DNA from: an uncultured Gammaproteobacteria bacterium
GTDB lineage: Bacteria > Pseudomonadota > Gammaproteobacteria > JAIEPX01
Assembly (NCBI GenBank): GCA_964567285.1
Contig: CAZMLO010000006.1
Location: 7,259 to 71,258, forward strand
Length of the DNA stretch: 64,000 nt
Direction: 5' to 3'
This document shows positions 5,730 to 50,000 of this stretch, one piece after another. Under the pieces are notes generated by a model. That model had not been told where the DNA came from, made no database searches, and saw only the letters and a list, made by a program, of their open reading frames with translations. Position numbers and translations under genes: made by a program. Numbering within the stretch: the first letter of the stretch is position 1; each line of letters opens with the position of its first letter.

Positions 5730-5874
5730 CTGGATCGCCACGCTGCGCTCGCGATGACGAGAATGAAGGCAGTGGCGGTCTCCTAATCGCCACGCTGCGC
5801 TCGCGATGACGAGAATGAAGGCAGTCGTGGTCTCCTAACTGTCATTGCGAGCGCAGCGTGGCAATCCAGAAAAG
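5730..5874. repeat. Composite palindromic repeat element. The left arm is CTGGATCGCCACGCTGCGCTCGCGATGAC. A ~53-bp internal unit is duplicated in tandem. The right arm is GTCATTGCGAGCGCAGCGTGGCAATCCAG, the reverse complement of the left arm.
   Basis: Read directly from the sequence. It lies in the divergent mltB/fimV-like intergenic region. Family members are at 35831, 39897, 41301, 45226 and 46095. Confidence 0.75.
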
Positions 5875-35872: not shown

Positions 35873-36655
35873 CTAAGATTTCTTAGCCTTTTGATTATCA
35901 ATATCAACCAGCTCAATCGTAAAAATCAATGTGGCATTAGGACCAATTTTTCCATGAGTGCCTCGTTCACCATAGGCTAAATTAGCGGGTGCAACGACTT
36001 CCCATTTTGATCCTTTGGGCATTAATTTTAGGGCTTCACGCCAAGCAGGTATGACGCTGTTCACAACGAAAGCAGCAGGTTTATCACCCAATTCTTGGCT
36101 GGTAGAGAAAACTTCACCGTTCAGTAGTTTTCCTGAGTAATTAACAAAAACCCTGTCAGTATCTTTGGGAGTAGGGCCCGTGCCTTTATTGAGTATTCGA
36201 TATTGGAGTCCTGAATTTGTAGTGGTTACACCAGGTTTTGCTTTGTTTTCGGCAAGGAATTTATTCGCTTCTTCTTTATTAGCATCCGCTAATTTTTTCA
36301 TATCAGCATACTGTTCCTGCATGGCTTGACGTTGAAAACTAATCAATACCTTCTGCATCTCTTCTTTGCTAATCGTAGGTTCTGCGTTAGAAATGCCTTG
36401 TTGGAATCCTTTGAGAAGCTCAGCTTGATTCAGCTGTTTGAATTGTTCAATTAAGTTTGTACCCATGGTGAAACCAATCGAATAACTTACTTTATTAATA
36501 TCAACAGATTGGTTGCTGGGTTGTTGAGAATTGCTGGTAGTTGAGCTTGTTGCGGTAGGTTTAGCCGGTGCTGTTGAATTGGCTGCATAAATCGACGACG
36601 CAGCAACCAAGGTTGAGAAAATCAAAGCCGTTGTTAAAGAACGAACTTGCATCAT
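35873..36655 (-). CDS. mip: FKBP-type peptidyl-prolyl isomerase Mip (macrophage infectivity potentiator)
   Basis: C-terminal FKBP domain (VNYSGKLLNGEVFSTS...LIFTIELVDI). N-terminal signal peptide from MMQVRS. SD AGGAG 7 nt upstream of the ATG at 36655. The track ORF has a 5' extension. Confidence 0.85.
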   Translation of the reverse strand: MMQVRSLTTALIFSTLVAASSIYAANSTAPAKPTATSSTTSNSQQPSNQSVDINKVSYSIGFTMGTNLIEQFKQLNQAELLKGFQQGISNAEPTISKEEMQKVLISFQRQAMQEQYADMKKLADANKEEANKFLAENKAKPGVTTTNSGLQYRILNKGTGPTPKDTDRVFVNYSGKLLNGEVFSTSQELGDKPAAFVVNSVIPAWREALKLMPKGSKWEVVAPANLAYGERGTHGKIGPNATLIFTIELVDIDNQKAKKS

Positions 36656-36857
36656 TATCTGACTCCTAAAAAGATGAATAAAAATCCAAGGGTACAAGAT
36701 TGTACCAATTTCAGTAAAGAGCAAAATGCCCGAAAGCGCTGTGGTAGAAGACTACAACAGTATTTTGTTAGCAAAGCATGGATTAAGTCTTCAGTAATCA
36801 AATACTGTGTCAAATAGCGTTTGTGCAATATCTAACAATAGAGTCGCCCAGCATATA

Positions 36858-36988: not shown

Positions 36989-38776
36989 ATGCAAGGTCAA
37001 CAGGAAAATCAAAGTCACCAACACTCAGCTGTGGTTCCAGGATTTATGGGGATAGGAAATTTAGTTTTCCAAAGTTTGCATTCCTCCACACAATCTGCCG
37101 CTGTTAAGGAAAAACTCTCATCTTTTCTCGCAATCAGGGACGAACTCCTCAAGGGCGTTAAAAATCTAATATCTAAAACGGATCCTAGGATAAACATCGG
37201 ATTATCTGCATGGTTAGATCAGAATGCTAAGACATACCCCGGCGCCATATTGAAGAAATTAATCTCTGAATATGCTGCGGCCAAAGCAGAAGATGCTAGA
37301 TTCAGTATCCTAAAAAAAGCAGGCGATTGGGCTACGTACTGCGCTCATCTTGGCGCAATTATCGAAACTTATTCAGCTCAAATGCTTCTCGATGCTGCAG
37401 AAGAACTGATTTTAGCATGGTCAAAATTACATGCAGAATCCAATGTTAGTGCTGAAGCTCTTAAAACGGCTCAAGGGAAAGTTGAAATCTTGACAGCAGA
37501 TAATCAGGCTCTACGTGAAGAGGTTGCAGGAAAAGCAGCAGCAGCTAGAGAAAAAGACGCGCTTGCAGCACAGCTAGCATCACAAAATGAGCAAGTACTG
37601 AAAGATCTGAAAGCGGAAGTAGAAAGACTCAGACAGTTGGCCGATAAAACAACAGCACTCGAACAGGAAGTCGTTAGCCTTAAAAGACAACTGGATAGTT
37701 CAGAGTCTCAAGTCCTCAAGCTTGAACAAGAAAAAAGTGAATATAAGGCCAAAGCAGAAGCTAACGCTCAAATGCAAACAGAGTTAGCCGTTACCAAAGC
37801 GCTCCTCGAACAACACAGGCAACGTATCGCTGAATTAGAAAAACAAATAGCGGAAGACAGACAAGAAACCAAAGAGATGCAATCTCAGATGTTGGCTCAG
37901 TTAACGTCTTTGAATGATAGATCTCGACTTGATGCAACGGCTAATCCTTATGCTTCTACCTCTATGAATCTTGGCAGTAGCTTTGTGGGTTCAGAAAATG
38001 CTTTTGGTGGGAGAGCTCCGGCTCCGCGGGATCTTAACACTTCGATGGGTGGGAATGGAAATCGTGGGAAATCTGGCATGTTTGCAGCTCCTGCCCAACT
38101 TATGCTGCTGAGAAACCCACATCTTGCAAAATCAGTAAACGAAACAACCGAACCTAATGCTAGTAAAATTGCTACGGGGTTGCACAAACTCAGAAGTACA
38201 AGACTTATTTCTGAGCTACGAATTAGCATGTTTGAACTTCTAGCTCGGTTTTTAAGTCATTTCGACCCAGACGATCAACGTGCTGACGAGTGCATTGCTG
38301 CTATCAATGCTTACAAGGGACTCTTTCTTGAACCTTTGGATCCTAAAACAGCTTTGGATAGGCTGATCAGAGACCTCTCTGAAGTTAAGTGCTCAACACA
38401 AGGTCCTGATCAATTCGAGGCCTTAAAACAAGATCTGTCTCAACTGGCAAGAACAACGCCTCGAGCTGTACAAAGCGTTGTACCTGAAAATCTTAATAAT
38501 ATTCTTGTGATCGCAGAGCTTAAAAATCTTACTATGCAGACTCGCTTTAATATACCCACTTTGAATGAGTACTTTACTGAAGTCTACGAAGAAGCTGAAG
38601 CTAAAGTAAAAGCTGCTAAAACAGCAACAAAGACAGCTGTAGCACCTAAGACGGCTTCGAAGCACGAAGAGCAGGTGTTTGGAGCAACTCAAGTTGAAGA
38701 GCAGGTGTTTGGAGCAGATCCAGCTTCACAAGATCTCTATGCATCCTCAGCGAGTAAAGACAACGTGTTTGGCTAA
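36989..38776 (+). CDS. Hypothetical 595-aa protein with a long central coiled-coil and FG-containing Gly/Asn-rich and C-terminal repeats (EEQVFGA x2, DNVFG). Effector-like.
   Basis: ORF with SD AAGGAG. Heptad-rich segment 150-300. 21-bp direct DNA repeat GAAGAGCAGGTGTTTGGAGCA x2 at 38664-38722. Confidence 0.5.
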   Translation: MQGQQENQSHQHSAVVPGFMGIGNLVFQSLHSSTQSAAVKEKLSSFLAIRDELLKGVKNLISKTDPRINIGLSAWLDQNAKTYPGAILKKLISEYAAAKAEDARFSILKKAGDWATYCAHLGAIIETYSAQMLLDAAEELILAWSKLHAESNVSAEALKTAQGKVEILTADNQALREEVAGKAAAAREKDALAAQLASQNEQVLKDLKAEVERLRQLADKTTALEQEVVSLKRQLDSSESQVLKLEQEKSEYKAKAEANAQMQTELAVTKALLEQHRQRIAELEKQIAEDRQETKEMQSQMLAQLTSLNDRSRLDATANPYASTSMNLGSSFVGSENAFGGRAPAPRDLNTSMGGNGNRGKSGMFAAPAQLMLLRNPHLAKSVNETTEPNASKIATGLHKLRSTRLISELRISMFELLARFLSHFDPDDQRADECIAAINAYKGLFLEPLDPKTALDRLIRDLSEVKCSTQGPDQFEALKQDLSQLARTTPRAVQSVVPENLNNILVIAELKNLTMQTRFNIPTLNEYFTEVYEEAEAKVKAAKTATKTAVAPKTASKHEEQVFGATQVEEQVFGADPASQDLYASSASKDNVFG

Positions 38777-38785
38777 TAAAATCCA

Positions 38786-39808
38786 ATGAAAGCTAAAAGC
38801 TCTCTCGCAGGTTCCGACTCCCCTGCTCCTACTGCAGGGGAGGATCCGCGAGATTCTGAACTACATCAGTTGCTTAATAAAAATAATTGGCTCAATGGCT
38901 CGAGAGACTATCGCCATAAAGCTTTAGCTCAGTTCGTCTCAAACAATAATCGTTATGCTCGTGAGAAATTACAAGCCGACGCTAAACTGCGGCAACAATT
39001 TTTCTCAGCATTGGCAGATTGTGAATTAGCAGAGTTCAAAATTTTAATTCGGTTTATTGCAAAATCGCGGGTATTAACTGAAGAGCTTAAGACCCTGCTC
39101 ACTGATGTCATGAACAAAAATGCGAATGGTTATTCTGATCCTCAGTGGAATAAGGCTCTTTATCGCTCTACTCTAGCCAAGTATTTGGTGCATAGTGATA
39201 CGATTGCTCATGCATTGTTATCGTACTCTATGCTCCCTTCAACAGATCCCGCTTTTGTTGCAAGAGTTTTACTGAATAAAATTGGTGCACCTGCAGTATA
39301 TTTTACACAAATAGATTCTCCGGTATGGCACATTATTAATACCTTAAAAGGTCTGGTAGAGTTAATACTCCCCTCTTTTTTATTTTCATTTAAAAACCCT
39401 CCTATACCTTCTGAAGTACTGGCGTGCATAGAAGAAGCTCCTCGTGATTTGGCGTCTGCAAAAGCTGAAGCTTCGAGCAATGCGGCTAAAATATGCATTA
39501 CCTTCAATACCTATGGCTGGTCCAAACCTAAAGAAGAAACTGAACCCAGCCCGGTTCCCTCACCTTCTATCAATCGAGTAGAACCACGCACTCCTGCAAA
39601 GCGGTTGGTGAATGCAAATGCTACTTTTCTAGGTACTGTTGAGGAGTTTGATCAGACATTTATGGAGCCAGCTCTTAAAAATGCTCTAGACGAGTCTTTT
39701 TGTGGTTCTTTTGGCGTTCCTCCATCTCCAATCAAATTTCAGGTAAAACGAACCCTATTGACTGATGATGAGTTGGCTGATCATGAAGTAAAATCAGGTA
39801 AACCATAG
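38786..39808 (+). CDS. Hypothetical 340-aa protein, cotranscribed with 36989..38776
   Basis: 10-bp gap to the upstream gene. No known motifs. Confidence 0.45.
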   Translation: MKAKSSLAGSDSPAPTAGEDPRDSELHQLLNKNNWLNGSRDYRHKALAQFVSNNNRYAREKLQADAKLRQQFFSALADCELAEFKILIRFIAKSRVLTEELKTLLTDVMNKNANGYSDPQWNKALYRSTLAKYLVHSDTIAHALLSYSMLPSTDPAFVARVLLNKIGAPAVYFTQIDSPVWHIINTLKGLVELILPSFLFSFKNPPIPSEVLACIEEAPRDLASAKAEASSNAAKICITFNTYGWSKPKEETEPSPVPSPSINRVEPRTPAKRLVNANATFLGTVEEFDQTFMEPALKNALDESFCGSFGVPPSPIKFQVKRTLLTDDELADHEVKSGKP

Positions 39809-39896: not shown

Positions 39897-39933
39897 CTGT
39901 CATCGCGAGGGAAGCGTGGCGATCCAGAATTTC
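39897..39933. repeat. Solo right-arm copy of the dispersed palindromic repeat (CTGTCATCGCGAGGGAAGCGTGGCGATCCAGAATTTC)
   Basis: Read directly, just upstream of rmuC. Confidence 0.6.
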
Positions 39934-39951: not shown

Positions 39952-41217
39952 ATGCATGAGCAAAGTCTGTTGATCATCGGTTTACTGAGCTTAGTATTAC
40001 TCAGTATTCTCGTCGTTTTTATTATCACCCAACACTCAAAATTAAAAGGTCTTGCTCATACTCTCTCCAATAAAGAAGACCAATTGAACGAACTTCGAGA
40101 TGCTTTTCATCGACTCATGAAACAACATCAACTGGATGTACATGAACAGCGCGAACGTTTTGATAAACATCAATTAGATAGCTTAAAATCCTTACAAGAA
40201 ACTTTAAACACGAATGTACTGAATATTCAGCAACATCTCACTTTCACCTTGAATCAAAACAGTGAGCAGCTCACTCAACAAGTTCGTTTTTTGACTCAAA
40301 ATACCGATCAACACCTCAAAGAAATCAGCGGACAAGTTGAAAAACGATTAACAGAAGGCTTTGACAAAACCACCGCTATTTTCAGTGATGTGGTGAAACG
40401 ATTGGCGCTGATTGATCAGGCCCAAGCGAAATTGACTGAACTCTCAAGTTCTATGCTCAGCTTACAAGAGGTGCTCTCCGATAAACGTTCGCGTGGTGCT
40501 TTTGGTGAGGTGCAACTCTCTCATTTGATTCATAATATGCTGCCAGAACAACATTTTGCACTGCAATATACGCTTTCCAATGATTGTCGCGCGGATGCGA
40601 TATTATTTTTACCCGAGCCCAGTGGACACATTGCTATAGACTCTAAATTTCCTCTGGAACGATATCGAGAGCTTCAAAATATTCCAGCGAACTCAAGCGA
40701 TCGAAAGATCATAGAACAACAATTTCGCACTGATATACGCCGCCATATCGATAATATTGCTGAAAAATATATTATTCCAGGCGAAACCGCCGATGGTGCG
40801 GTGATGTTTATCCCGGCAGAAGCCTTATTTGCAGAAATCCACGCGCATTATGCAGAATTAATTGAGTACGCCTATTCACGTCGAGTCTGGATGGTCTCTC
40901 CAACCACCTTAATGGCGATTTTAACCACCGCTGGCGCTGTGCTCAAAGACGATGCAACCCGCAAGCAGGTGCATATTATTCAAGAGCATCTAGCCCGATT
41001 AGGCGTTGATTTTGCCCGATTCCAAAAGCGGATGGATAATTTGTCGCGGCATATTACTCAAGCACAACAAGATGTTGAGGATATCCACAAATCTTCTCGA
41101 AAAATAACTCAGCGCTTTAACAAAATTGAGAAGGTAGAGTTAGAGGGCTACGGCGATGCTGCTCTACTCCCTGAGGCTGAAGTTGCTCTCTTGAATGAAG
41201 AAGCGATTGATGAGTAG
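39952..41217 (+). CDS. rmuC: DNA recombination protein RmuC
   Basis: N-terminal TM, long coiled-coil, conserved RSRGAFGEVQL motif and a C-terminal nuclease-like domain. Confidence 0.75.
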   Translation: MHEQSLLIIGLLSLVLLSILVVFIITQHSKLKGLAHTLSNKEDQLNELRDAFHRLMKQHQLDVHEQRERFDKHQLDSLKSLQETLNTNVLNIQQHLTFTLNQNSEQLTQQVRFLTQNTDQHLKEISGQVEKRLTEGFDKTTAIFSDVVKRLALIDQAQAKLTELSSSMLSLQEVLSDKRSRGAFGEVQLSHLIHNMLPEQHFALQYTLSNDCRADAILFLPEPSGHIAIDSKFPLERYRELQNIPANSSDRKIIEQQFRTDIRRHIDNIAEKYIIPGETADGAVMFIPAEALFAEIHAHYAELIEYAYSRRVWMVSPTTLMAILTTAGAVLKDDATRKQVHIIQEHLARLGVDFARFQKRMDNLSRHITQAQQDVEDIHKSSRKITQRFNKIEKVELEGYGDAALLPEAEVALLNEEAIDE

Positions 41218-41300
41218 ATGACGGGTTGCAGTTCTGATGTATAGTAGTGCGGCAGCCTGATGTGAAGAAGTGCTGCAGCGTAATCGTGACACTTATCCCA

Positions 41301-41336
41301 CCGTCGTCGCGAGCGTAGCGTGGCGATCCAGGATGG
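41301..41336. repeat. Solo right-arm copy of the dispersed palindromic repeat (CCGTCGTCGCGAGCGTAGCGTGGCGATCCAGGATGG)
   Basis: Read directly, just downstream of rmuC and in the same orientation as the copy at 39897. Confidence 0.6.
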
Positions 41337-41355
41337 TTCTGAAGGCTGGTGAACT

Positions 41356-42147
41356 TTAGCTGGCAGTCACTGCACGGGAAATCAACCCAACGCTTACCCA
41401 CTCTCTGAGTGTGGCCCCTGCAAATTGTGGTACTTGTTCAGGATCCATTAATTCGCACAAAGATTCGCAAATCTCAGGAAAGGTTTGATTGTCTTGTATC
41501 GCTTTGATCATTAATAATTGTTCAGGACCAGCAAGATTGTAGTGAGCGCGTTGATTGAAGCGCCAGACTATCCAAGTTTGTGGCTGCTCTGCTCTTTGAA
41601 CAGCCGGTACAGGATGTTTCTCAGGATCGTTTTCAAATAAAGCACGCCAAATTTCAGGGGTATTTAGTTCCAGTGAAAGAAATCGTAGGGAAGGATGCAA
41701 TTCTAATCGCAATTCCGCCCACGCTTCAGCAGGAATTTGCCCCATTTCTTCAACCGTTAATTGTGGCCCATCAGGCGCATCTATCACCTTGCCAAAAGCC
41801 CATTCGAACTGAGCTAATTCGATATGAAGGGGATCCCTATTGGGATCCTTAGCTAAATAGGCAGGCATGTGTCGGCCATAAGCTCTAACAGAAAAATAAG
41901 TAGAAGGATGAGCATCAATATACTGTCGACAGAGTGCTTCAAAAGCATCTTTACCGAGTAAATTTTTCAGTGCTGAAAATTCACGCTCTAAAATTTCAAT
42001 CAATCGCAAATAATAGCCTTGCCGATAAATTTCAACGCGTTCGTACACTGAAATCTGAGGAGCATCTACAATTTTCCCTTCAATACCCTCTCGCTTTTGA
42101 TGCACGTAGGTTTGAAACTGTTCCTGTAACTCCCGCAAGCGGCTCAT
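41356..42147 (-). CDS. DUF2063-family protein (MbnC/BufC-like partner of the DUF692 enzyme)
   Basis: 263 aa. It overlaps the DUF692 gene by 4 bp. The N-terminal region matches the DUF2063 family pattern. Confidence 0.7.
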   Translation of the reverse strand: MSRLRELQEQFQTYVHQKREGIEGKIVDAPQISVYERVEIYRQGYYLRLIEILEREFSALKNLLGKDAFEALCRQYIDAHPSTYFSVRAYGRHMPAYLAKDPNRDPLHIELAQFEWAFGKVIDAPDGPQLTVEEMGQIPAEAWAELRLELHPSLRFLSLELNTPEIWRALFENDPEKHPVPAVQRAEQPQTWIVWRFNQRAHYNLAGPEQLLMIKAIQDNQTFPEICESLCELMDPEQVPQFAGATLREWVSVGLISRAVTAS

Positions 42148-43019
42148 GCAACTGCCTCCAAGGTGTAAGCTTGATTTGATATGCTTTTATTCTTTGCCCA
42201 TGCCGTGTTAGCGATACTTTTTAGAGTATTTAATTCTTCAATGAGTTCAGGCAACGGTGGAATATTATCATCGCGCTCGATCATCGCAGAGACTTTCCCA
42301 AAACGTTCGGCGGCATAAGCAAATAAATCCCAGACTTCATGAATAATCGGATGATCATGCGTATCGATAATATGATCACCATTATTGGTATGCCCTGCCA
42401 TATGGAATTGTTGAACGCGATCGATAGGAATAATATTTAAATATTCAATAGGATCGAAATTGTGATTAAAAGCGGATACATAAACATTATTCACATCGAG
42501 CAATAATAGACAATCAGCTTGTTCAGCAACAGCTTTGATAAATTCGGGTTCAGAAATACAGGTATCCGTATACGTGACATAGCTTGAAGGATTCTCTAAT
42601 AGAATTTGACGTCCTAAAAAATCTTGGACTTTTTTTATGCGATCAACGACGTGAATTAATGCTTCTTCGGTATAGGGTAAAGGCATTAAATCATGCAGAT
42701 TATTGCCGTTAATGCCGGTCCAGCAAAAATGATCAGAAACCCAGGCGGGTTCTAATCGTTCAGCTAAGTTTTTGAGCAGTTTAAGATAATCGTAGTCCAG
42801 TGGATCGCAACCCCCAATCGATAAGGAAACGCCATGCATTACAATGGGATAGAGTTCGCGGATCTTGAATAAATAATGAAGAGGATTTCCACCTTCGACA
42901 AGATAATCTTCTGAAATAATCTCGAACCAATCGACTTCGGTGGGCTTAGTGCTGAGGACATCATCGTAATGTTTAGGTCGTAGACCCAAACCAAATCCTA
43001 AATAATCGTATCGGGCCAT
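42144..43019 (-). CDS. DUF692 / UPF0276 TIM-barrel protein (MbnB / BufB / TglH-like peptide Cys-modifying enzyme)
   Basis: Hallmark N-terminal GFGLGLRPKHY. 291 aa. Operon with DUF2063 and an upstream Cys-rich peptide. Confidence 0.8.
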   Translation of the reverse strand: MARYDYLGFGLGLRPKHYDDVLSTKPTEVDWFEIISEDYLVEGGNPLHYLFKIRELYPIVMHGVSLSIGGCDPLDYDYLKLLKNLAERLEPAWVSDHFCWTGINGNNLHDLMPLPYTEEALIHVVDRIKKVQDFLGRQILLENPSSYVTYTDTCISEPEFIKAVAEQADCLLLLDVNNVYVSAFNHNFDPIEYLNIIPIDRVQQFHMAGHTNNGDHIIDTHDHPIIHEVWDLFAYAAERFGKVSAMIERDDNIPPLPELIEELNTLKSIANTAWAKNKSISNQAYTLEAVA

Positions 43020-43043
43020 CTTGATGATCTCTTTAAAAAAACA

Positions 43044-43071
43044 CTACCGGTTATGTTGCCATAACCGGTAG
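43044..43071 (-). terminator. 12-bp perfect stem-loop (CTACCGGTTATG-ttgc-CATAACCGGTAG) followed by a U-run on the minus strand. It is an intrinsic attenuator between the precursor and enzyme genes.
   Basis: Read directly. AAAAAAA at 43034-43040 on the plus strand reads as a T-run after the hairpin on the minus strand. Confidence 0.55.
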
Positions 43072-43105
43072 TTAGCTAGAAAAAGAATATTACCGTAGTA
43101 ATTTC

Positions 43106-43297
43106 TTATTTTTTGCAGCTATCGCCACCACAGCTATTGGTGCCTTTGCAAGATGACATACCTTTGCAAGTTGGCGCTGGAGCAGCTTTAACACCGCAAC
43201 CACCACTAGAACCAGTGCCTGTGCTAGCACAACCAGCAGCAAACGCAGCAGCTGCAGCAACAGCAAGAACGGTACCTACTTTTGTTACTAAATTCAT
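43106..43297 (-). CDS. Small secreted Cys/Gly/Ser-rich precursor peptide (63 aa) with a Sec/lipoprotein-type signal and 6 Cys (..TCKGMSSCKGTNSCGGDSCKK)
   Basis: SD GAGGGA 8 nt upstream of the ATG at 43297 (the track uses TTG at 43303). Hydrophobic Ala-rich signal, then AAGC. Core repeats C-K-G-x-x-S-C. GCT/GGT-biased codons. Sits immediately 5' of the DUF692/DUF2063 genes. Confidence 0.6.
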   Translation of the reverse strand: MNLVTKVGTVLAVAAAAAFAAGCASTGTGSSGGCGVKAAPAPTCKGMSSCKGTNSCGGDSCKK

Positions 43298-43461
43298 AAC
43301 CAATTTCCCTCTAGTTAACTACTAAAAAAAATGCTTTGAAAGCTTCCAAAAATGCATTTATAAAAATGCTTGTATCGAATCAGAATGCCCATTAAAGAGC
43401 TTTTCCAAGCCGTTACAGATTGGTATTTAGAACTATTTTGAGCTAAAATGCAAGTGTTTCA

Positions 43462-45213
43462 TTGATGTATCTTCTGAAGGGAATTTTGATGACCACCGAT
43501 ACTTTATCTGAATGGCCTTCGAGCAGGGATGCACAGGAAGCTAAAAAATCTGTGTCCCCTAAACACTGGTTCAGGCAATTAATCCGAAAAACGTGGTTAA
43601 CTTATTCTCAAGTGATAATTATTTCTCTATTTATTAATGTATTAGGGTTGGCCACCCCTCTCTTTATCCGTCAGGTTTATGATCAAATAATACCCTTAAA
43701 GGCTATCGATACACTGGGACTGCTAGTCATCGCTGTCCTGAGTGCGTTGGCTTTTGAATTTGTTTTACGGAATCTACGCGCTTTTTGTATCGATAAAGTT
43801 GGCAAAAAAATAGATATTCAAGTCAGTTCTGAGCTTTTTTCCCGGCTTTTAGGGGTGAAATTGGCTGATCGTCCCGCCTCTGTGGGTTCTTTAGCCAATT
43901 CAATACAGACGTTCGATGGTTTTCGGGAATTTATGACTTCGGCAACGTTGAGTACCTTAGTAGATTTGCCTTTCGTTATCGTCTTTTTAGGACTGATTGC
44001 GCTTTTGAGTGGCAACTTAGTTTGGGTGCCTTTGGTTGCCATGCCTTTGATTGTATCCCTGAGCCTTTTTATTCAGCGACCGCACTCTCGGCTTATCCAA
44101 GAGGCTTTTAAGCACTCGGCTAAGAAACAAGCCTTTTTAATTGAATCTTTGGCCTCACTGGAGACAATCAAAGCCTTGGGTGCTGAGAGTCCTTTTCAAC
44201 AGCGTTATGAGGGCCTATCGAGGGAATCAGCATCCATGACTAACAAAACCAAATGGTTGAGCAGCTTAGCCAACCATTTTGCTTTGTTCGCCCAGACACT
44301 GGCTTCGATTGCGCTGGTTGTTTATGGAGTCTACGAGATCTCAGCAGGCAACTTAAGTGTGGGTGCTTTAATAGCTTGTTCTTTGCTCAGTGCACGAGCG
44401 CTCTCCCCTATTGCACAAATCGCCGTATTGATCAGCCGATATCAACATGCTAAAGCAGGATTCTTGGCTGTGGACGAATTGATGAAATTAGCGCAAGAAA
44501 AATCCGATCAGAGAGATTTGATCTGCCCTCATCATTTTCAAGGTCATATTGAATTTTCAGGCGTATCTTTTCAGTATCCGGGTGCGAAACTTTCAGCCTT
44601 AAATGCCATTTCATTAAAGATTCAAGCAGGAGAACGAGTGGCAATAATCGGTAAAACGGGGTCTGGTAAATCCACACTTGCCAAAACAATCATGAAATTT
44701 TACGAGCCTACACGGGGACACGTTTTTATTGATGGCGTGGATTTGCGTCAACTCGATCCTTGCGCATTACGTCGTTATATCGGATATATTCCCCAAGAGG
44801 TAGTCTTGTTTAAAGGGAGTATCAAAGACAATATTCTCCTGGGAAGTTCAAATGTGGATGAATCGGCTTTATTGCGTGCTGTTCAACTGGGTGGTGTGAA
44901 CTCGTTTCTAGAAAACCATCCTGAAGGATTGGATCGAATGATAGGAGAACGCGGTGAAGGGCTTTCCGGAGGGCAACGTCAGGCCATAGCAATTGCCAGA
45001 GCATTATTACTAGATCCACCACTGCTACTCTTTGATGAGCCCAGTAATGGCTTCGATGAAAACAGTACAGAGGCCTTGATTGAAAGACTAACACCTATTT
45101 TATCGAATAAAACATTCATTTTAGTCACGCACAAAACGGCTATGCTAAAGTGCGTGGATAGGGTTATTGTAATGGATAACAGCCAAATTGTGACGGATAT
45201 GGAGAAAAGCTAG
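43462..45213 (+). CDS. ABC exporter, fused TMD-NBD (type I secretion / peptide-exporter family, no C39 peptidase domain)
   Basis: 6-TM N-terminal domain. Walker A GKTGSGKST, signature LSGGQRQ, Walker B LLLFDEPS. Divergent from the RiPP operon. The start may instead be the MTTDTL Met at 43489. Confidence 0.8.
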   Translation: MMYLLKGILMTTDTLSEWPSSRDAQEAKKSVSPKHWFRQLIRKTWLTYSQVIIISLFINVLGLATPLFIRQVYDQIIPLKAIDTLGLLVIAVLSALAFEFVLRNLRAFCIDKVGKKIDIQVSSELFSRLLGVKLADRPASVGSLANSIQTFDGFREFMTSATLSTLVDLPFVIVFLGLIALLSGNLVWVPLVAMPLIVSLSLFIQRPHSRLIQEAFKHSAKKQAFLIESLASLETIKALGAESPFQQRYEGLSRESASMTNKTKWLSSLANHFALFAQTLASIALVVYGVYEISAGNLSVGALIACSLLSARALSPIAQIAVLISRYQHAKAGFLAVDELMKLAQEKSDQRDLICPHHFQGHIEFSGVSFQYPGAKLSALNAISLKIQAGERVAIIGKTGSGKSTLAKTIMKFYEPTRGHVFIDGVDLRQLDPCALRRYIGYIPQEVVLFKGSIKDNILLGSSNVDESALLRAVQLGGVNSFLENHPEGLDRMIGERGEGLSGGQRQAIAIARALLLDPPLLLFDEPSNGFDENSTEALIERLTPILSNKTFILVTHKTAMLKCVDRVIVMDNSQIVTDMEKS

Positions 45214-45225
45214 GGCTGAATCGAT

Positions 45226-45276
45226 TTCTGGATCGCCAGGCCACCTGCGCTTGCGATGACGAAGAGGTCAGATCTC
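45226..45276. repeat. Solo left-arm copy of the dispersed palindromic repeat (TTCTGGATCGCCAGGCCACCTGCGCTTGCGATGACGAAG)
   Basis: Read directly. Confidence 0.6.
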
Positions 45277-45295
45277 AGTGTAATGGGTTTTAGAA

Positions 45296-45365
45296 AGTGA
45301 AGGGGCCAAATTTAGGTGTGATGGGTAGTTAGTACCCATCACACTCAGACCTGACCCCTTCACCG
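45296..45365. terminator. Nested palindrome. The outer arms are GTGAAGGGG/CCCCTTCAC. The inner 12-bp perfect hairpin is GTGTGATGGGTA-gttag-TACCCATCACAC. It lies between convergent genes.
   Basis: Read directly. It sits between the ABC exporter (+) end and the SPOR gene (-) end. No strong U-run. Confidence 0.45.
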
Positions 45366-45368
45366 TTG

Positions 45369-46004
45369 TTAGGCTTGCTCATCAAAATCGGTGTTGACTA
45401 CTTTGCCTTTGATGTGTGATTGCTTCAGTTTGTTATTTAATTTTTCCGCGGCTGCTCGTTCTTTGGTTGGGCCTACATACACTTCAGAAGTGACTTTAGA
45501 ACCGTTTTTTATTTCTTTGATAAAGCCATCAAATCCTCGCTTTTGAAGCAACGCTACTGATTTTTTTAACTCCGTTGAGTTGGTATAAGAACCCACTTTG
45601 ACAGCCCATTTTTCAGTTTCTGGGGAGTCCGAAAGGGAAGACTGATTGTCATTAGTGGGATTGCTAGGATAATTGGGCATGGATTTATTATCAGGTTGAG
45701 TTGAATGATTGTCTGGATCAGAACTATTGTCTTGTTTCGGAGATGAAGATTGCGATTCCAAAGAGTTTGAGTTTGAACTTGTTGAGGTAGATGCCCCTGA
45801 ATTAGCAGAAGAATCCGATGTGCTGCTGGTTGAGTTTTGAGTATTTGATTGGGCATTTGAACCTGTCTGTGCTTGAGCCAGTGTGGTTTTTGAGGCTGAG
45901 GGCTTATGAACTACGGCTGCTTTTTGATGAGCAAAAACAGTGGAAGCATTTGCAAGAGAAAAAACAACAGAAATAAAAATCAGTTTGGAAAAGAACTTAT
46001 TCAT
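45369..46004 (-). CDS. Secreted SPOR-domain protein with a Ser/Asn-rich low-complexity linker
   Basis: Signal peptide. C-terminal SPOR domain (KWAVKVGSYTNSTELKKSVALLQKRGF). Confidence 0.65.
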   Translation of the reverse strand: MNKFFSKLIFISVVFSLANASTVFAHQKAAVVHKPSASKTTLAQAQTGSNAQSNTQNSTSSTSDSSANSGASTSTSSNSNSLESQSSSPKQDNSSDPDNHSTQPDNKSMPNYPSNPTNDNQSSLSDSPETEKWAVKVGSYTNSTELKKSVALLQKRGFDGFIKEIKNGSKVTSEVYVGPTKERAAAEKLNNKLKQSHIKGKVVNTDFDEQA

Positions 46005-47088: not shown

Positions 47089-50000
47089 TCATCTCTCCCT
47101 GGCATCATTCCCATTGATTCGAGCTAAATCGACCAACTCTCTCATGGCTACTGTGAGCATAGAAAAATCGTTGCTGGGGGTATTTCGCAAATCAGTAACC
47201 ATATTTTCCCAACGATTGACGTGCTCTGAATGGCTTTGTAGCCAGGCTTTAATTTGTTGCTGAGGACTCAGTTTATTGTCTCGAGTTGCAATGACACTGG
47301 CTGTAATGGCTCGTTGTAAAGAATCCAAATCAGCTTTATAAGCAGCACGTGCCAACACGCCCCAATGATTTGTGATCGGGAAAGAATTAATTTGTTCGCG
47401 GAACCAAATTAAATCTAATTGTTCAATGAGCTCAAAGTGGTAAGCGGCTGCAGTTAAAACATCGACCTTAGCACCCGAAGAAGCTTCAACGATGTTCAAC
47501 ACCAATAGCATATGACCTGTCATTGCAAATTGTTTAGCAATTTCTTTAGGAACACCGGATTTTGTAAGGGCTTGAATGCGTTCATTATAGGCTGTTTTAG
47601 CGTTACCGGTTAATAAATTGGGCAATGCCTCAGCCAATTTTTCCAAGGGTTTTTTGAAATGTTCGATGGTTTTAAGAATATCGTAGTGACCATGTCGATT
47701 GCGTAAAAACCAGCGTGTTGCTCGACGAATCAGCTGAGTAATGTCTAAGGTCATTTGATGTAAAACATCGGCAGATACTTTATGTTCTAACGATTGGATA
47801 GCATTGAGATAATCCACCATAGAGAAAATTTCTCGGGAAGTAACATAAGCACGGACCACAGATTCTGCAGAGCCGCCTGTTTCATCTTGCATTTGATAGC
47901 TAAATGTAATTCCCAAGTTGGTGACTAAATCATTACAGAGTTGGGTTGCAATAATTTCACGAACAAGTCGGTGCTGATTCATCTCATCACGATATTGCTT
48001 CGCCAATGTTTTGGGGAAGGCCGATTCTAAATAACCGATCAAAGAAGGATCCTTGGTGAATTCAGTACCTAAAATTTGTTCTTTGAGAATTAGTTTTGAA
48101 TAAGCCATTAGTACGGCAATTTCAGGTCGAGTGAGTGCCAATCCATCCGCTTTGCGATCATTGAGATCTTTATTGTTGGGTAAAAATTCCAATGCCCGAG
48201 GCAGTTTGCCGCTTTGTTCATAGGTATCCATGTATTGTCGATACAATTCAAAATATTCTGCGGACTGTTTGACGGCCAAAGAGATTGCCCGAGCTTGAGA
48301 GTAATTGTTAATCAGAACTAATTTCCCAACTTCATCCGTCATCGAGGCTAATAATTTGTTCCGATCTGCCAATGTTAATTTGCCATTGGCAACCACGCGA
48401 CTCAGTAGAATTTTGATATTCACTTCATGGTCCGAGCAATCTACCCCACCGGAATTATCGATAAAATCAGTATTTATACGCCCGCCACTCAGTTCGTATT
48501 CAATACGAGACAATTGCGTGAAGCCGAGATTGCCGCCCTCAGCGACAACACGGCAACGTAATTCATCACCATTAATCCGGAGAGCATCGTTAGCGCGATC
48601 GCCAACTTGAGCGTCTGTTTCTGTTTTGGATTTGACATAAGTACCAATACCACCGTTCCAGAGTAAATCCACTTCTGCTTTGAGGAGTAAGCGAATTAAT
48701 TCATTGGGTTCGATCGTTTCTTTATCAGTGCCTACTAAAGACTGTGCTTCAGGTGAAAGTTTTATGGCTTTAGCTGATCGAGCATAAATACCGCCACCTT
48801 TTGAAATTAATTTCTCATTGTAATCAGTCCATTGCGAACGCGGTAAGTTGAATAAGCGTTGACGTTCATCGAAGCTCGTTTTAGGGTCCGGATTAGGATC
48901 AATAAATATATGCATATGATTGAAAGCAGCGACCAATTTAATATGTTTGGATAAGAGCATGCCATTACCGAAAACATCGCCTGACATATCACCAATACCC
49001 ACCACAGTAAATTCTTCTTTTTGAGTATCTAGACCCAGATCATAAAAATGATTTTTAACCGATTCCCATGCCCCTCTTGCGGTAATACCCATTTTTTTGT
49101 GGTCATAACCGGCAGAACCGCCCGAGGCGAAAGCGTCGCCTAACCAAAAATCATACTCTGCAGAAATCGAGTTGGCGATATCTGAAAAGGTTGCGGTTCC
49201 CTTATCGGCAGCGACCACTAAATAAGGATCATCGCCATCGTAGCGTACAGTATTAGGAGGCGTGGTTATTTTGCCATTTTCAAGATTGTCGACTAAATCC
49301 AATAATCCGCGGATGAAATTTTGGTAGCAATGAATTCCTTCTTGCATAATTTCTTCACGGCTGCCATCGGTGGGTAAGAGTTTAGGATAAAATCCCCCTT
49401 TAGCACCATGAGGAACAATAATGGCATTTTTAACGGATTGTGCCTTCATCAGACCTAAAACTTCCGTGCGGAAATCCTCTCTACGATCTGACCAACGAAT
49501 TCCCCCACGTGCTACTTTCGATCCGCGTAGGTGCACACCTTCAAAACGGACTGAATAAACAAAAGTTTCAAACATGGGTAAAGGTAATGGTAGATCGGGG
49601 ATTTTACGAGGATCTAATTTTAGAGATAAGTAGTCTTTGAATTTTCCATCCGAAGTGGTTTGATAGTAATTGGTACGCAAAGTCGCTTTAACAAGCGCGA
49701 TATAACGACTAAAAATACGTTCCTCATCCAGGCTGCTGACATGATCGAGTGCAGAGAGGATACTTTTTTCAATTTGAAGCAGTTTAGACGCTCTGCCTTT
49801 TTCCAATTGAGGATCGAAATGCAGATGGAAAAATTCCATGATGAGTCGAGCGATTCCAGGATTATTACTAAAGGCTTGTTCGATATAATGTTGAGAAAAA
49901 TGAAAGCGTGCTTGGTGTAAATATTTAGCATAAGCACGTAAAACACGAACTTCATGCCAGTTTAATTCAGCGGCTAAAACCAGTCTATTGAAACTATCAT

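What the first reader, a model, noticed from the sequence alone, without database searches (positions are those of the whole stretch)
41356..43303. RiPP-type operon: a secreted 6-Cys precursor peptide, an attenuator hairpin, a DUF692 (MbnB-like) gene and a DUF2063 (MbnC-like) gene. It is likely a Cys-modifying metallophore system.
A 63-aa ORF encodes a Sec/lipoprotein-type signal peptide followed by a Gly/Ser-rich core with Cys in C-K-G-x-x-S-C-like repeats (TCKGMSSCKGTNSCGGDSCKK). It lies immediately 5' of a DUF692 TIM-barrel gene (hallmark GFGLGLRP) that is translationally coupled to a DUF2063 gene. A 12-bp perfect hairpin plus U-run separates the precursor from the enzyme genes. That is the usual device giving precursor:enzyme stoichiometry in RiPP operons. 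Established knowledge: MbnB/MbnC (methanobactin), TglH/TglI and the bufferin BufB/BufC pairs are DUF692/DUF2063 enzymes that oxidatively convert Cys in ribosomal peptides to oxazolone/thioamide or thiooxazole groups, and bufferins are Sec-secreted metallophores linked to copper stress. A 6-Cys precursor of this composition in a Legionellales-type intracellular bacterium would be a new or uncharacterised member. The divergently transcribed ABC exporter 160 bp away may be functionally linked.
Basis: partly seen in the sequence, partly recalled or inferred. Interest (0 to 1): 0.75.

Follow-up and report, generated by a model that had tools for sequence, protein, structure and literature searches.

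The report
Short lipid-anchored bufferin-type peptide operon
This is a three-gene operon of the known bufferin (captophorin) kind, predicted to turn cysteines of a small exported peptide into copper-binding rings; the only unusual part is the peptide, a very short, probably lipid-anchored version from a small unnamed subfamily.

Summary
On the minus strand lie a 63-aa Cys-rich peptide gene (43106-43297), a 13-bp hairpin plus U7 (43035-43072), a DUF692/MNIO gene (42144-43019) and an overlapping DUF2063 gene (41356-42147).

The enzyme passes NCBIfam's BufB equivalog cut-off and keeps all nine MbnB iron ligands. It also keeps the catalytic Asp and the adjacent Asp typical of enzymes that act on Cys-Lys motifs. 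The partner protein models confidently as DUF2063 plus a peptide-recognition (RRE) domain; its best structural match is 3DEE.

The peptive fails the BufA2 model (18 vs 60 bits). One of its six Cys is a lipobox Cys, so the mature core has five. Four of them (C44, C50, C56, C61) align with the four modified Cys of Buf2. The disulfide pair and the folded C-terminal part are missing. Only 11 relatives exist among 1.84 billion representative proteins; all are short lipobox + SCKG peptides, and every one checked on an informative contig lies upstream of an MNIO gene.

A stem-loop between the peptide and enzyme genes recurs in all 14 clade loci with unrelated stem sequences, which supports a real attenuator or stabiliser role.

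The neighbouring ABC transporter is an LssB-type type I secretion remnant and shows no link to the operon. Verdict: a new member of a known kind, with modest interest.

The parts
43298..43361 (-). Conserved 5' block directly upstream of the peptide gene, including the Shine-Dalgarno GAGGG (43307-43311). It presumably holds the operon promoter, which was not identified.
   Evidence: Alignment of the window, L001 and L002: this roughly 64-nt block is conserved while sequence further upstream is not. The sigma-70 scan found no minus-strand site here.
43106..43297 (-). bufA-like precursor gene, 63 aa: MNLVTKVGTVLAVAAAAAFAAGCASTGTGSSGGCGVKAAPAPTCKGMSSCKGTNSCGGDSCKK.
   Evidence: ORF. Called as a gene on independent metagenome contigs. 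Orthologues are 74-89% identical with all 6 Cys invariant. Weak BufA2 hit: 18.3 bits, cut-off 60.
43229..43297 (-). Lipoprotein-type signal peptide (aa 1-22: K6, hydrophobic core, lipobox F-A-A-G-C) and the lipobox Cys23 codon (43229-43231).
   Evidence: The PROSITE PS51257-style rule is met, with Cys at position 23, and the hydropathy profile fits. The [LF]xAGC[AS] motif is invariant in all 11 family representatives. SignalP/LipoP were not available.
43109..43228 (-). Core peptide (aa 24-63), Gly/Ser/Lys-rich with five Cys: C34, C44, C50, C56, C61. The last four sit in [TS]-C-[KG]-[GK] contexts spaced 5, 5 and 4 residues apart and are the predicted modification sites.
   Evidence: A local HMM of 63 canonical BufA2 sequences aligns C44/C50/C56/C61 with CysII-CysV. 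In Buf2 the central four Cys carry -4.03 Da (PMC11626156). The AF2 model has low confidence with no fold beyond the signal helix.
43089..43102 (-). Small 5-bp hairpin just after the peptide stop codon.
   Evidence: RNA fold. The stem is conserved and the loop varies in L001, L002 and L086.
43035..43072 (-). Intrinsic-terminator-like hairpin (13-bp stem, 6 GC pairs, 4-nt loop) plus U7, 16 nt before the bufB start codon. It is the proposed leaky terminator or transcript-stabilising element.
   Evidence: z = -5.45. Conserved in L001, L002 and L086 with loop changes only. All 14 clade loci carry a 10-19-bp stem-loop here with unrelated stem sequences. 22 of 75 buf loci pass a strict terminator rule. 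The sequence is not repeated elsewhere in the window.
42144..43019 (-). bufB: MNIO (DUF692) enzyme, 291 aa.
   Evidence: PF05114 E = 1.9e-108. NCBIfam MNIO_BufB 370 bits, above the 310 cut-off. Ligand equivalents H62, H97, E142, D175, N178, H206, D219, H221 and E248, plus D250 and D251. H97 to E248 are mapped on 7tcr_A; H62 is placed only by motif (3bww alignment) and by invariance.
41356..42147 (-). bufC: MNIO partner protein type 1 (DUF2063 N-domain plus RRE-type C-domain), 263 aa, translationally coupled to bufB (ATGA overlap at 42144-42147; GGAGG 7 nt upstream).
   Evidence: PF09836 73 bits, above the 27.2 cut-off. HvfC model aligned over residues 29-256, 46.6 bits, below its cut-off. AF2 model pLDDT 92.4. 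Best PDB matches 3DEE (TM 0.77) and TglI 8hi7.

Best explanation
This is a bufABC-type biosynthetic operon of the bufferin/captophorin class, Cys-Lys (Buf2-related) group.

Shown from sequence:
- A 63-aa precursor carries a lipoprotein-type signal peptide.
- It is followed by an MNIO enzyme with a complete iron site and by its DUF2063-RRE partner, in the invariant A-B-C order.
- A strong stem-loop plus U-run sits 16 nt before the bufB start. There is no room for a promoter after it.

Inferred mechanism:
1. BufC binds the precursor and BufB uses its Fe cofactor and O2 to oxidise Cys by four electrons to 5-thiooxazoles. The targets are most likely C44, C50, C56 and C61, and possibly C34. This happens in the cytoplasm.
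2. The modified peptide is exported by Sec.
3. Cys23 is diacylglycerylated by Lgt, the signal peptide is cut by LspA, and the new N-terminus is acylated by Lnt.
4. The result is a roughly 41-residue lipid-anchored thiooxazole peptide in the envelope. Because Ala follows the lipobox Cys, the outer membrane is the likely location.
5. There it buffers copper, or a related soft metal.

The hairpin terminates most transcripts after bufA, or protects the bufA 3' end. Either way the precursor mRNA ends up in excess over the bufBC read-through mRNA.
For: Enzyme:
- BufB equivalog score is 370 bits against a 310 cut-off. Scores for HvfB, ApyH, MbnB and ChrH are all below their cut-offs.
- Eight of the nine MbnB Fe ligands listed in PMC9060507 map residue-for-residue onto the window protein in the 7tcr_A alignment. 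The ninth, H62 (MbnB H54), lies outside that alignment and is placed by the conserved 'MHG' motif in the 3bww alignment. All nine, and the catalytic Asp, are invariant in 81 sequences.
- D251 follows the catalytic Asp. PMC13097082 reports this as the signature of MNIOs that act on Cys-Lys substrates, and the peptide has three C-K motifs.

Partner:
- DUF2063 hit. The high-confidence model's top PDB matches are 3DEE (NGO1945) and TglI, and RRE proteins (TbiB1) appear as weak sub-domain hits.

Precursor:
- It is conserved, with all Cys invariant, and shows more synonymous than non-synonymous changes in the mature part.
- Four Cys align with the modified CysII-V of Buf2.
- 75 of 80 related loci have a Cys-rich signal-peptide ORF in the same position.
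- All 11 significant relatives among 1.84e9 representatives are lipobox + SCKG peptides. Four of the five newly looked up (P0089, P0090, P0093, P0095) lie directly upstream of an MNIO gene, and the two on long enough contigs also have DUF2063 next; P0092 sat on a cut contig and was uninformative. P0001 and loci L001, L002 and L005 show the same bufA-MNIO-DUF2063 order.

Precedent:
- C. vibrioides buf2ABC also lacks DoxX, is Cu-induced, and its four central Cys carry -4 Da (PMC11626156).
- About 16% of Buf2 precursors are predicted lipoproteins (PMC12452194).
- An MNIO-modified lipoprotein has been shown experimentally (PMC13056109).

Hairpin.
Against: - The peptide fails the curated BufA2 model (18.3 vs 60 bits).
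- Mature-core profile comparison with canonical Buf2 matches only 9 columns around one xCKG motif.
- It lacks the CysI-CysVI disulfide pair and the folded C-terminal segment, so which Cys are modified is extrapolated.
- BufC scores below the HvfC equivalog cut-off (46.6 vs 142 bits).
- No copper-related gene, DoxX or metal regulator was found among the neighbouring proteins scanned, so metal specificity is borrowed from relatives.
- Lipidation rests on a pattern rule; no dedicated predictor or experiment was available.
- No promoter was identified.
- Termination efficiency of the hairpin is unknown.
Confidence: 0.78

Rival explanations
1. The hairpin is not an attenuator. Either it is a full terminator and bufBC has its own promoter inside bufA, or it only protects the 3' end of a processed bufA transcript.
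For: By consensus it is a strong terminator: 13 bp plus U7. Several relatives have stem-loops without a clear U-run (L007, L008, L028, L041), which fits a stabiliser better than a terminator.
Against: Only 16 nt separate the U-run from the bufB ATG, so no promoter fits after the hairpin. No minus-strand promoter-like site was found inside bufA. The A-B-C order with a short spacer is universal.
Confidence: 0.2
2. The small ORF encodes an ordinary unmodified lipoprotein, or is not the substrate, and BufBC act on a peptide encoded elsewhere.
For: The peptide fails the BufA2 HMM. Stand-alone bufferin precursor genes exist elsewhere in genomes (PMC12452194). Non-RiPP lipoproteins occur in some bufferin gene clusters (PMC13056109).
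Against: The position immediately 5' of the MNIO gene is conserved in every informative family member checked. Cys-Lys motifs match the D251 determinant of the enzyme (PMC13097082). No other CKG-rich ORF exists in the 64-kb window apart from one weak 2-motif stretch at 1047-1241 that was not examined further. There is no hit to LptM or other lipoprotein families.
Confidence: 0.07
3. The divergent ABC transporter exports or processes the peptide, as in bacteriocin-type RiPP operons.
For: The two genes are 158 bp apart and divergent. An orthologous ABC gene is adjacent in the closest relatives L001, L002 and L086-L088, where it carries a C39 peptidase-type domain.
Against: - It is an LssB-type type I secretion ABC protein (748 bits vs 693 cut-off).
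- The peptide has a Sec/lipoprotein signal and no double-glycine leader.
- In this window the ABC protein lacks its first ~138 residues, and the membrane fusion gene and the outer-membrane domain are gone, while bufABC is intact.
- More distant family members (L005, L089-L091) have no such transporter, whereas RmuC is just as syntenic.
Confidence: 0.03
4. The same enzymes act, but the outcome differs: another heterocycle (oxazolone-thioamide), or a target metal other than copper, such as Au, Hg, Cd or Zn.
For: Structural assignments in this family were disputed until recently (PMC11252979 vs PMC13097082). gig operons respond to gold and cadmium as well as copper, and some bufferins are fused to MerC (PMC11626156, PMC12452194). 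No copper gene is nearby.
Against: Recent work reassigns HvfA and related products to 5-thiooxazoles and unifies MNIO-PME1 systems (PMC13097082). Buf1 and Buf2 were shown to protect against copper (PMC11626156).
Confidence: 0.15

Closest known systems
Bufferin 2 system (BufA2-BufB2-BufC2, BUF_6/12Cys) of Caulobacter vibrioides and relatives, including Legionella species
   Same: - Three-gene A-B-C order without DoxX.
- The MNIO passes the BufB equivalog cut-off.
- The partner is DUF2063-RRE.
- The precursor has an N-terminal Sec-type signal and repeated x-C-K-G motifs.
- The enzyme carries the Asp-Asp (Cys-Lys) determinant.
- The nearest BufB clade includes canonical 7-Cys lipobox Buf2 precursors (L007, L028, L041).
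   Different: - The precursor is 63 aa rather than about 85-95 aa.
- It scores 18 bits against the 60-bit BufA2 cut-off.
- It lacks CysI, CysVI and the C-terminal 'GF..M..C..GG' segment.
- It is predicted to be unstructured.
- It has a lipoprotein signal peptide rather than a signal peptidase I type.
Oxazolin/HvfABC, fontiphorin and gonophorin (Lys-Cys captophorins, EGKCG repeats)
   Same: MNIO-PME1 pair, signal-peptide precursor, Cys converted to 5-thiooxazole, link to copper. The closest solved MNIO structure (3BWW, E = 2.8e-47) belongs to this group.
   Different: The peptide has C-K rather than K-C motifs. The HvfB model scores 275 bits against a 360 cut-off. The specificity position is Asp (D251), not Phe. 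No DoxX gene is present.
Methanobactin MbnABC
   Same: Same enzyme superfamily and the same iron ligands. Cys is oxidised to a metal-binding heterocycle on a ribosomal peptide.
   Different: The MbnB model scores 74 bits against a 325 cut-off. The partner is DUF2063-RRE rather than MbnC. The precursor has a Sec/lipoprotein signal rather than a leader peptide. There are no methanobactin transport or uptake genes.
RiPP-lipoproteins such as DybA (ChrH-subfamily MNIO) and predicted lipidated bufferins and oxazolins
   Same: An MNIO-modified peptide with a lipobox, expected to pass through Lgt, LspA and Lnt after cytoplasmic modification.
   Different: DybA undergoes macrocyclisation and hydantoin formation at a CPACGMG motif by a ChrH-type enzyme. 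Here the enzyme is BufB-type and the motifs are SCKG. Lipidation of a bufferin has so far only been predicted.

Membership tests
Bufferin / captophorin gene cluster (MNIO + PME1 + signal-peptide Cys-rich precursor) | MNIO enzyme of the BufB type | tested here: met
   NCBIfam NF050167 MNIO_BufB 370 bits, cut-off 310; Pfam PF05114 E = 1.9e-108.
Bufferin / captophorin gene cluster (MNIO + PME1 + signal-peptide Cys-rich precursor) | Complete multinuclear iron site and catalytic Asp | tested here: met
   H97, E142, D175, N178, H206, D219, H221 and E248 align with MbnB H90, E133, D163, N166, H192, D208, H210 and E239 in 7tcr_A (ligand list from PMC9060507). H62 (MbnB H54) is assigned by motif only. 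All nine, plus D250, are invariant in 81 sequences.
Bufferin / captophorin gene cluster (MNIO + PME1 + signal-peptide Cys-rich precursor) | Adjacent DUF2063 + RRE partner protein (PME type 1) | tested here: met
   PF09836 73 bits, cut-off 27.2. AF2 pLDDT 92.4. Foldseek top hits 3DEE (prob 1.00, TM 0.77) and TglI. Length is 263 aa, as is typical (PMC12452194).
Bufferin / captophorin gene cluster (MNIO + PME1 + signal-peptide Cys-rich precursor) | Gene order precursor-MNIO-partner, with a Cys-containing Sec-signal precursor | tested here: met
   The signal peptide was judged by a pattern rule and hydropathy only; SignalP was not available.
Bufferin / captophorin gene cluster (MNIO + PME1 + signal-peptide Cys-rich precursor) | DoxX (BufD) gene in the cluster (frequent, not obligatory) | tested here: not met
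   bufC is followed by a 138-bp spacer and the convergent rmuC gene. C. vibrioides buf2 also lacks it (PMC11626156).
Bufferin / captophorin gene cluster (MNIO + PME1 + signal-peptide Cys-rich precursor) | Cys converted to 5-thiooxazole; copper binding and copper-stress role | not testable with these tools
   Needs co-expression with MS/NMR and metal assays.
Buf2 precursor family (BUF_6/12Cys; NCBIfam BufA2 NF050166) | Score at or above the curated model cut-off | tested here: not met
   18.3 bits against a cut-off of 60, E = 0.002. 23 bits against a local profile of 63 canonical BufA2 sequences.
Buf2 precursor family (BUF_6/12Cys; NCBIfam BufA2 NF050166) | Six conserved core Cys, with CysI-CysVI flanking four modified Cys, and a folded C-terminal segment | tested here: not met
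   Only CysII-V equivalents align (C44, C50, C56, C61). CysVI and the C-terminal segment are absent. Mature-core hhalign covers 9 columns. The AF2 model shows no fold, though its alignment is shallow.
Buf2 precursor family (BUF_6/12Cys; NCBIfam BufA2 NF050166) | Cys-Lys motifs matched by Asp after the catalytic Asp in the enzyme | tested here: met
   The peptide has TCKG, SCKG and SCKK. The enzyme has E248-R-D250-D251, and Asp occupies that position in 80 of 81 relatives (criterion from PMC13097082).
Buf1 (DUF2282) precursors | Pfam DUF2282 signature with four conserved Cys | tested here: not met
   No Pfam hit at E <= 0.01.
Oxazolin / HvfABC (Lys-Cys, EGKCG) | EGKCG repeats and an HvfB-type enzyme | tested here: not met
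   No K-C motif in the peptide. HvfB model 275.5 bits against a 360 cut-off. Asp rather than Phe at the specificity position.
Methanobactin MbnABC | MbnB equivalog, MbnC partner and a leader-peptide MbnA | tested here: not met
   MbnB model 74 bits against a 325 cut-off. The partner is DUF2063, and MbnC structures match it only weakly (E = 0.4). The precursor has a signal peptide.
RiPP-lipoproteins (signal peptidase II pathway) | Lipobox with invariant Cys after a hydrophobic signal segment | tested here: met
   PS51257-style rule met at C23. [LF]xAGC is invariant in all 11 family representatives and in the 12-member BufB clade. Actual lipidation cannot be tested here.

The most novel reading that the evidence does not exclude
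The window peptide and its 11 relatives form a distinct, so far unnamed subfamily of minimal bufferins. They are 57-98 aa, disulfide-less and intrinsically unstructured. The mature product would be a triacylated lipopeptide carrying three to five thiooxazoles, tethered in the envelope. The subfamily probably derives from lipobox-type Buf2 by loss of the folded C-terminal half. It seems to be concentrated in a Legionellales-related lineage, where a membrane-anchored copper shield could matter inside amoebal or macrophage phagosomes.
Probability: 0.4. Interest if true: 0.45.

Novelty: new member of a known kind. Interest (0 to 1): 0.3.

Why it matters
Bufferins/captophorins are one of the largest RiPP classes and are tied to copper tolerance, including in pathogens. 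This locus adds a very small, probably lipid-anchored precursor type that curated models miss, so genome annotation would leave the substrate unnamed.

With only about 40 core residues and four regularly spaced SCKG-type sites, it would be a convenient minimal substrate. It could be used to study how BufB/BufC choose Cys residues without a folded scaffold. It could also test whether lipidated bufferins really exist.

The recurrent stem-loop between precursor and enzyme genes is a testable, general expression design in this class. I did not find it mentioned in the one bufferin paper I searched for it (PMC11626156).

None of this changes the known picture of the family.

Tried and rejected
- **Pfam on the peptide:** no hit.
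- **Rfam (E <= 1) over 40500-44000:** only two chance-level matches and no known RNA element in the spacer.
- **Sigma-70 scan:** no minus-strand promoter upstream of bufA. Palindromes I saw by eye in the 158-bp divergent region are not conserved in L001 or L002, so I dropped an operator hypothesis.
- **PDB sequence search with BufC:** nothing. Structure prediction plus Foldseek was needed instead.
- **Terminator after bufC:** the spacer folds no better than shuffles (z = -0.33). It contains a REP-like repeat instead.
- **Hairpin as a dispersed repeat:** rejected, because its arm occurs only at this site apart from one 1-mismatch half-site.
- **Copper or DoxX genes nearby:** none among the neighbours scanned. 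The two-component system at 52182-54247 looks PmrAB/QseBC-like rather than CopRS.
- **Second precursor gene in the window:** none beyond one weak 2-motif stretch at 1047-1241 that I did not examine.
- **hhalign of mature cores against canonical Buf2:** only a 9-column motif match, so I do not file the peptide as Buf2.
- **AF2 of the peptide:** low confidence from a 4-sequence alignment, which is weak evidence for disorder.
- **Organism identity:** not resolved. The closest genomes are unclassified gammaproteobacterial MAGs.
Full report
**1. What is there**

- **Peptide gene.** A 63-codon ORF at 43106-43297 starts with ATG, and a GAGGG Shine-Dalgarno sits 9 nt upstream. The in-frame TTG at 43303, which gave the finding its end coordinate, is too close to that site to be the start.
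- **Spacer.** An 86-nt spacer (43020-43105) follows. It holds a small 5-bp hairpin (43089-43102) and a 13-bp, 6-GC stem with a 4-nt loop (43043-43072), followed by G and seven U (43035-43041). The spacer folds far better than shuffled controls (z = -5.45; 0 of 200 shuffles as good).
- **Enzyme genes.** The DUF692 gene (42144-43019, 291 aa, starting MARYDYLGFGLGLRP) begins 16 nt after the U-run. The DUF2063 gene (41356-42147, 263 aa) overlaps its stop codon by ATGA.
- **Flanks.** Downstream is a 138-bp spacer and the convergent rmuC. Upstream, 158 bp away and divergent, is an ABC transporter gene.

Two small corrections apply: the stem is 13 bp, not 12, and the '6 Cys' include a lipobox Cys.

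**2. The enzymes**

The DUF692 protein matches Pfam MbnB_TglH_ChrH at E = 1.9e-108. It exceeds NCBIfam's curated cut-off for the BufB equivalog (370 vs 310 bits). It stays below the cut-offs for HvfB, ApyH, MbnB and ChrH.

The iron ligands of Methylosinus MbnB are H54, H90, E133, D163, N166, H192, D208, H210 and E239 (PMC9060507).
- The phmmer alignment to 7tcr_A places H97, E142, D175, N178, H206, D219, H221 and E248 opposite eight of them.
- H62 (the H54 equivalent) lies outside that alignment. I assigned it from the conserved 'MHG' motif in the 3bww alignment.
- All nine positions are invariant in the window protein and its 80 relatives.
- The following R-D250-D251 is also conserved. D250 corresponds to the proposed catalytic base. 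An Asp at the next position, instead of Phe, is reported as the mark of MNIOs that work on Cys-Lys substrates (PMC13097082).

The DUF2063 protein passes the Pfam cut-off and aligns over almost its whole length to the HvfC model, though below that cut-off. A 48-sequence AlphaFold model is confident (pLDDT 92.4). Its best PDB matches are NGO1945 (3DEE, TM 0.77) and TglI, with RRE proteins as weak sub-domain hits. It is a type-1 MNIO partner: DUF2063 plus an RRE domain (PMC12452194).

**3. The peptide**

*Coding status.* Gene callers find this ORF on independent metagenome contigs. Orthologues at 74-89% identity keep all six Cys. Against L001 and L002 the mature part shows more synonymous than non-synonymous codon changes.

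*Signal peptide.* The N-terminus has a Lys, a hydrophobic stretch and F-A-A-G-C. This meets the PROSITE-style lipoprotein rule with Cys23. Ala follows the Cys, so there is no Asp retention signal.

*Relation to Buf2.*
- The curated BufA2 model gives only 18.3 bits against a cut-off of 60.
- A profile I built from 63 canonical BufA2 sequences gives 23 bits. It aligns C44, C50, C56 and C61 with canonical CysII-CysV. In Buf2 those are the four Cys that carry -4.03 Da, while CysI and CysVI form a disulfide (PMC11626156).
- The window peptide has no CysVI and none of the C-terminal folded segment.
- With signal peptides removed, profile-profile comparison matches only 9 columns around one xCKG motif.
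- The AlphaFold model shows no fold beyond the signal helix, but the alignment has only four sequences.

I therefore do not file the peptide as a Buf2 member. It is a Cys-Lys-type bufferin-like precursor.

**4. Relatives**

*BufB relatives in genomes.* BufB relatives are very common: 593 confirmed stretches in one genome scan.
- In 75 of the 80 loci kept, a Cys-rich ORF lies just upstream. 63 of these are canonical ~88-aa Buf2 precursors.
- In a neighbour-joining tree (no support values), the window enzyme falls in a 12-member clade in which every precursor has a lipobox.
- Its nearest neighbours carry short non-canonical peptides. Canonical 7-Cys lipobox Buf2 precursors (L007, L028, L041) form the sister group.
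- This suggests the short peptides arose from lipobox Buf2 by loss of the C-terminal half.
- The clade includes Rickettsiella massiliensis, a member of Legionellales.

*Peptide relatives.* A full HMMER scan of 1.84 billion representative proteins found only 11 relatives at E < 0.001.
- All are 57-98 aa with [LF]xAGC and two to four SCKG-type motifs.
- Four of the five I looked up from this scan (P0089, P0090, P0093, P0095) sit directly before an MNIO gene. On the two contigs long enough to show it (P0090, P0095), a DUF2063 gene follows.
- The fifth (P0092) was on a cut contig and was uninformative.

**5. The hairpin**

- The same stem is kept in L001, L002 and L086, with changes only in the loop.
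- In all 14 loci of the wider clade, the bufA-bufB spacer holds a 10-19-bp stem-loop whose sequence differs completely between lineages. Most are followed by a U-rich run.
- Across 75 buf loci, 22 pass a strict terminator rule.
- The stem is not a dispersed repeat in the window, and no Rfam family matches.
- Because only 16 nt separate the U-run from the bufB start, bufBC must be read through from the bufA promoter.

A leaky terminator, or a 3'-end-protecting stem, giving excess precursor mRNA is thus the best reading. The efficiency is untested. From general knowledge, similar devices operate between the precursor and enzyme genes of other peptide operons such as microcin C.

**6. The ABC transporter**

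- It passes the LssB type I secretion model (748 vs 693 bits) but matches only profile positions 128-685.
- Relatives L086-L088 have, at the same place, a 727-768-aa ABC protein with a C39-type domain, a membrane fusion protein and an outer-membrane-SPOR fusion.
- In the window the first ~138 residues of the ABC protein, the whole fusion-protein gene and the outer-membrane domain are absent, while bufABC is intact.
- More distant family members lack any such transporter, and rmuC is at least as syntenic.
- The peptide has a Sec/lipoprotein signal and no double-glycine leader.

I see no support for a functional link.

**7. Comparison and verdict**

This is a bufABC operon of the bufferin/captophorin class.
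- The three-gene form without DoxX matches C. vibrioides buf2 (PMC11626156).
- Lipoprotein signals are predicted for about 16% of Buf2 precursors (PMC12452194), and lipidation of an MNIO-modified peptide has been demonstrated (PMC13056109).
- Hundreds of unclassified small Cys peptides next to such enzymes have already been noted (PMC12452194).

Two things are new here: one more member, and the recognition of a small, coherent short lipobox-SCKG subfamily that curated models miss.

Modification chemistry, lipidation, metal specificity and attenuation are all inferred. The Legionellales-like origin of the window is plausible but was not tested. It rests on a Mip-like FKBP, LssB, a PmrAB-like system and many orphan proteins.

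Noticed in passing
window 43462-46004, compared with L086 1-5624: The type I secretion module next to the operon looks degraded. Relatives have a C39-ABC protein (727-768 aa), a membrane fusion protein (388 aa) and an outer-membrane-SPOR fusion (719 aa). The window has a 583-aa ABC protein lacking about 138 N-terminal residues, no fusion-protein gene, and a 211-aa SPOR-only protein.
   Followed up: partly
window 5732-5755 (-), 39902-39925 (+), 41306-41329 (+): A REP-like 24-nt element (GTCGCGAGCGTAGCGTGGCGATCC, up to 3 mismatches) occurs three times; the two copies near the operon lie between genes. None is expected by chance. One copy sits in the spacer between bufC and rmuC.
   Followed up: partly
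window 36989-38776, 38786-39808, 54562-56754, 56696-57529 (-): Four sizeable ORFs (595, 340, 730 and 277 aa) have no NCBIfam match. The 595-aa protein is coiled-coil-rich and ends in tandem EEQVFGA repeats. They may be lineage-specific, effector-like proteins.
   Followed up: no
window 35873-36724 (-), 47089-52014 (-), 52182-54247 (+): The context hints at a Legionellales-like organism: a Mip-like FKBP isomerase with an N-terminal domain, a 1641-aa NAD-glutamate dehydrogenase, and a PmrA/QseB-type response regulator with a QseC/PmrB-type kinase. Taxonomy was not established.
   Followed up: no
window 39952-41217 and loci L002, L005, L086-L088, L090: rmuC lies convergently downstream of bufC in the window and in several relatives, including ones that lack the ABC gene. 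This synteny is at least as persistent as that of the ABC transporter.
   Followed up: partly
L003 3495-3770, L004 3582-3833, L061 3528-3782: Other members of the same BufB clade carry quite different lipobox peptides with 9-16 Cys in CxxC, CxxxC or 'TCNTCDTC' patterns and His/Lys/Arg-rich tails, one of them in Rickettsiella massiliensis. They still pair with an enzyme that has the Asp-Asp motif.
   Followed up: no
L086 6217-7155: The public gene call for bufB in this relative is extended upstream (312 aa) through the hairpin region. The conserved start is the Met before 'TRFDYLGFG'.
   Followed up: no
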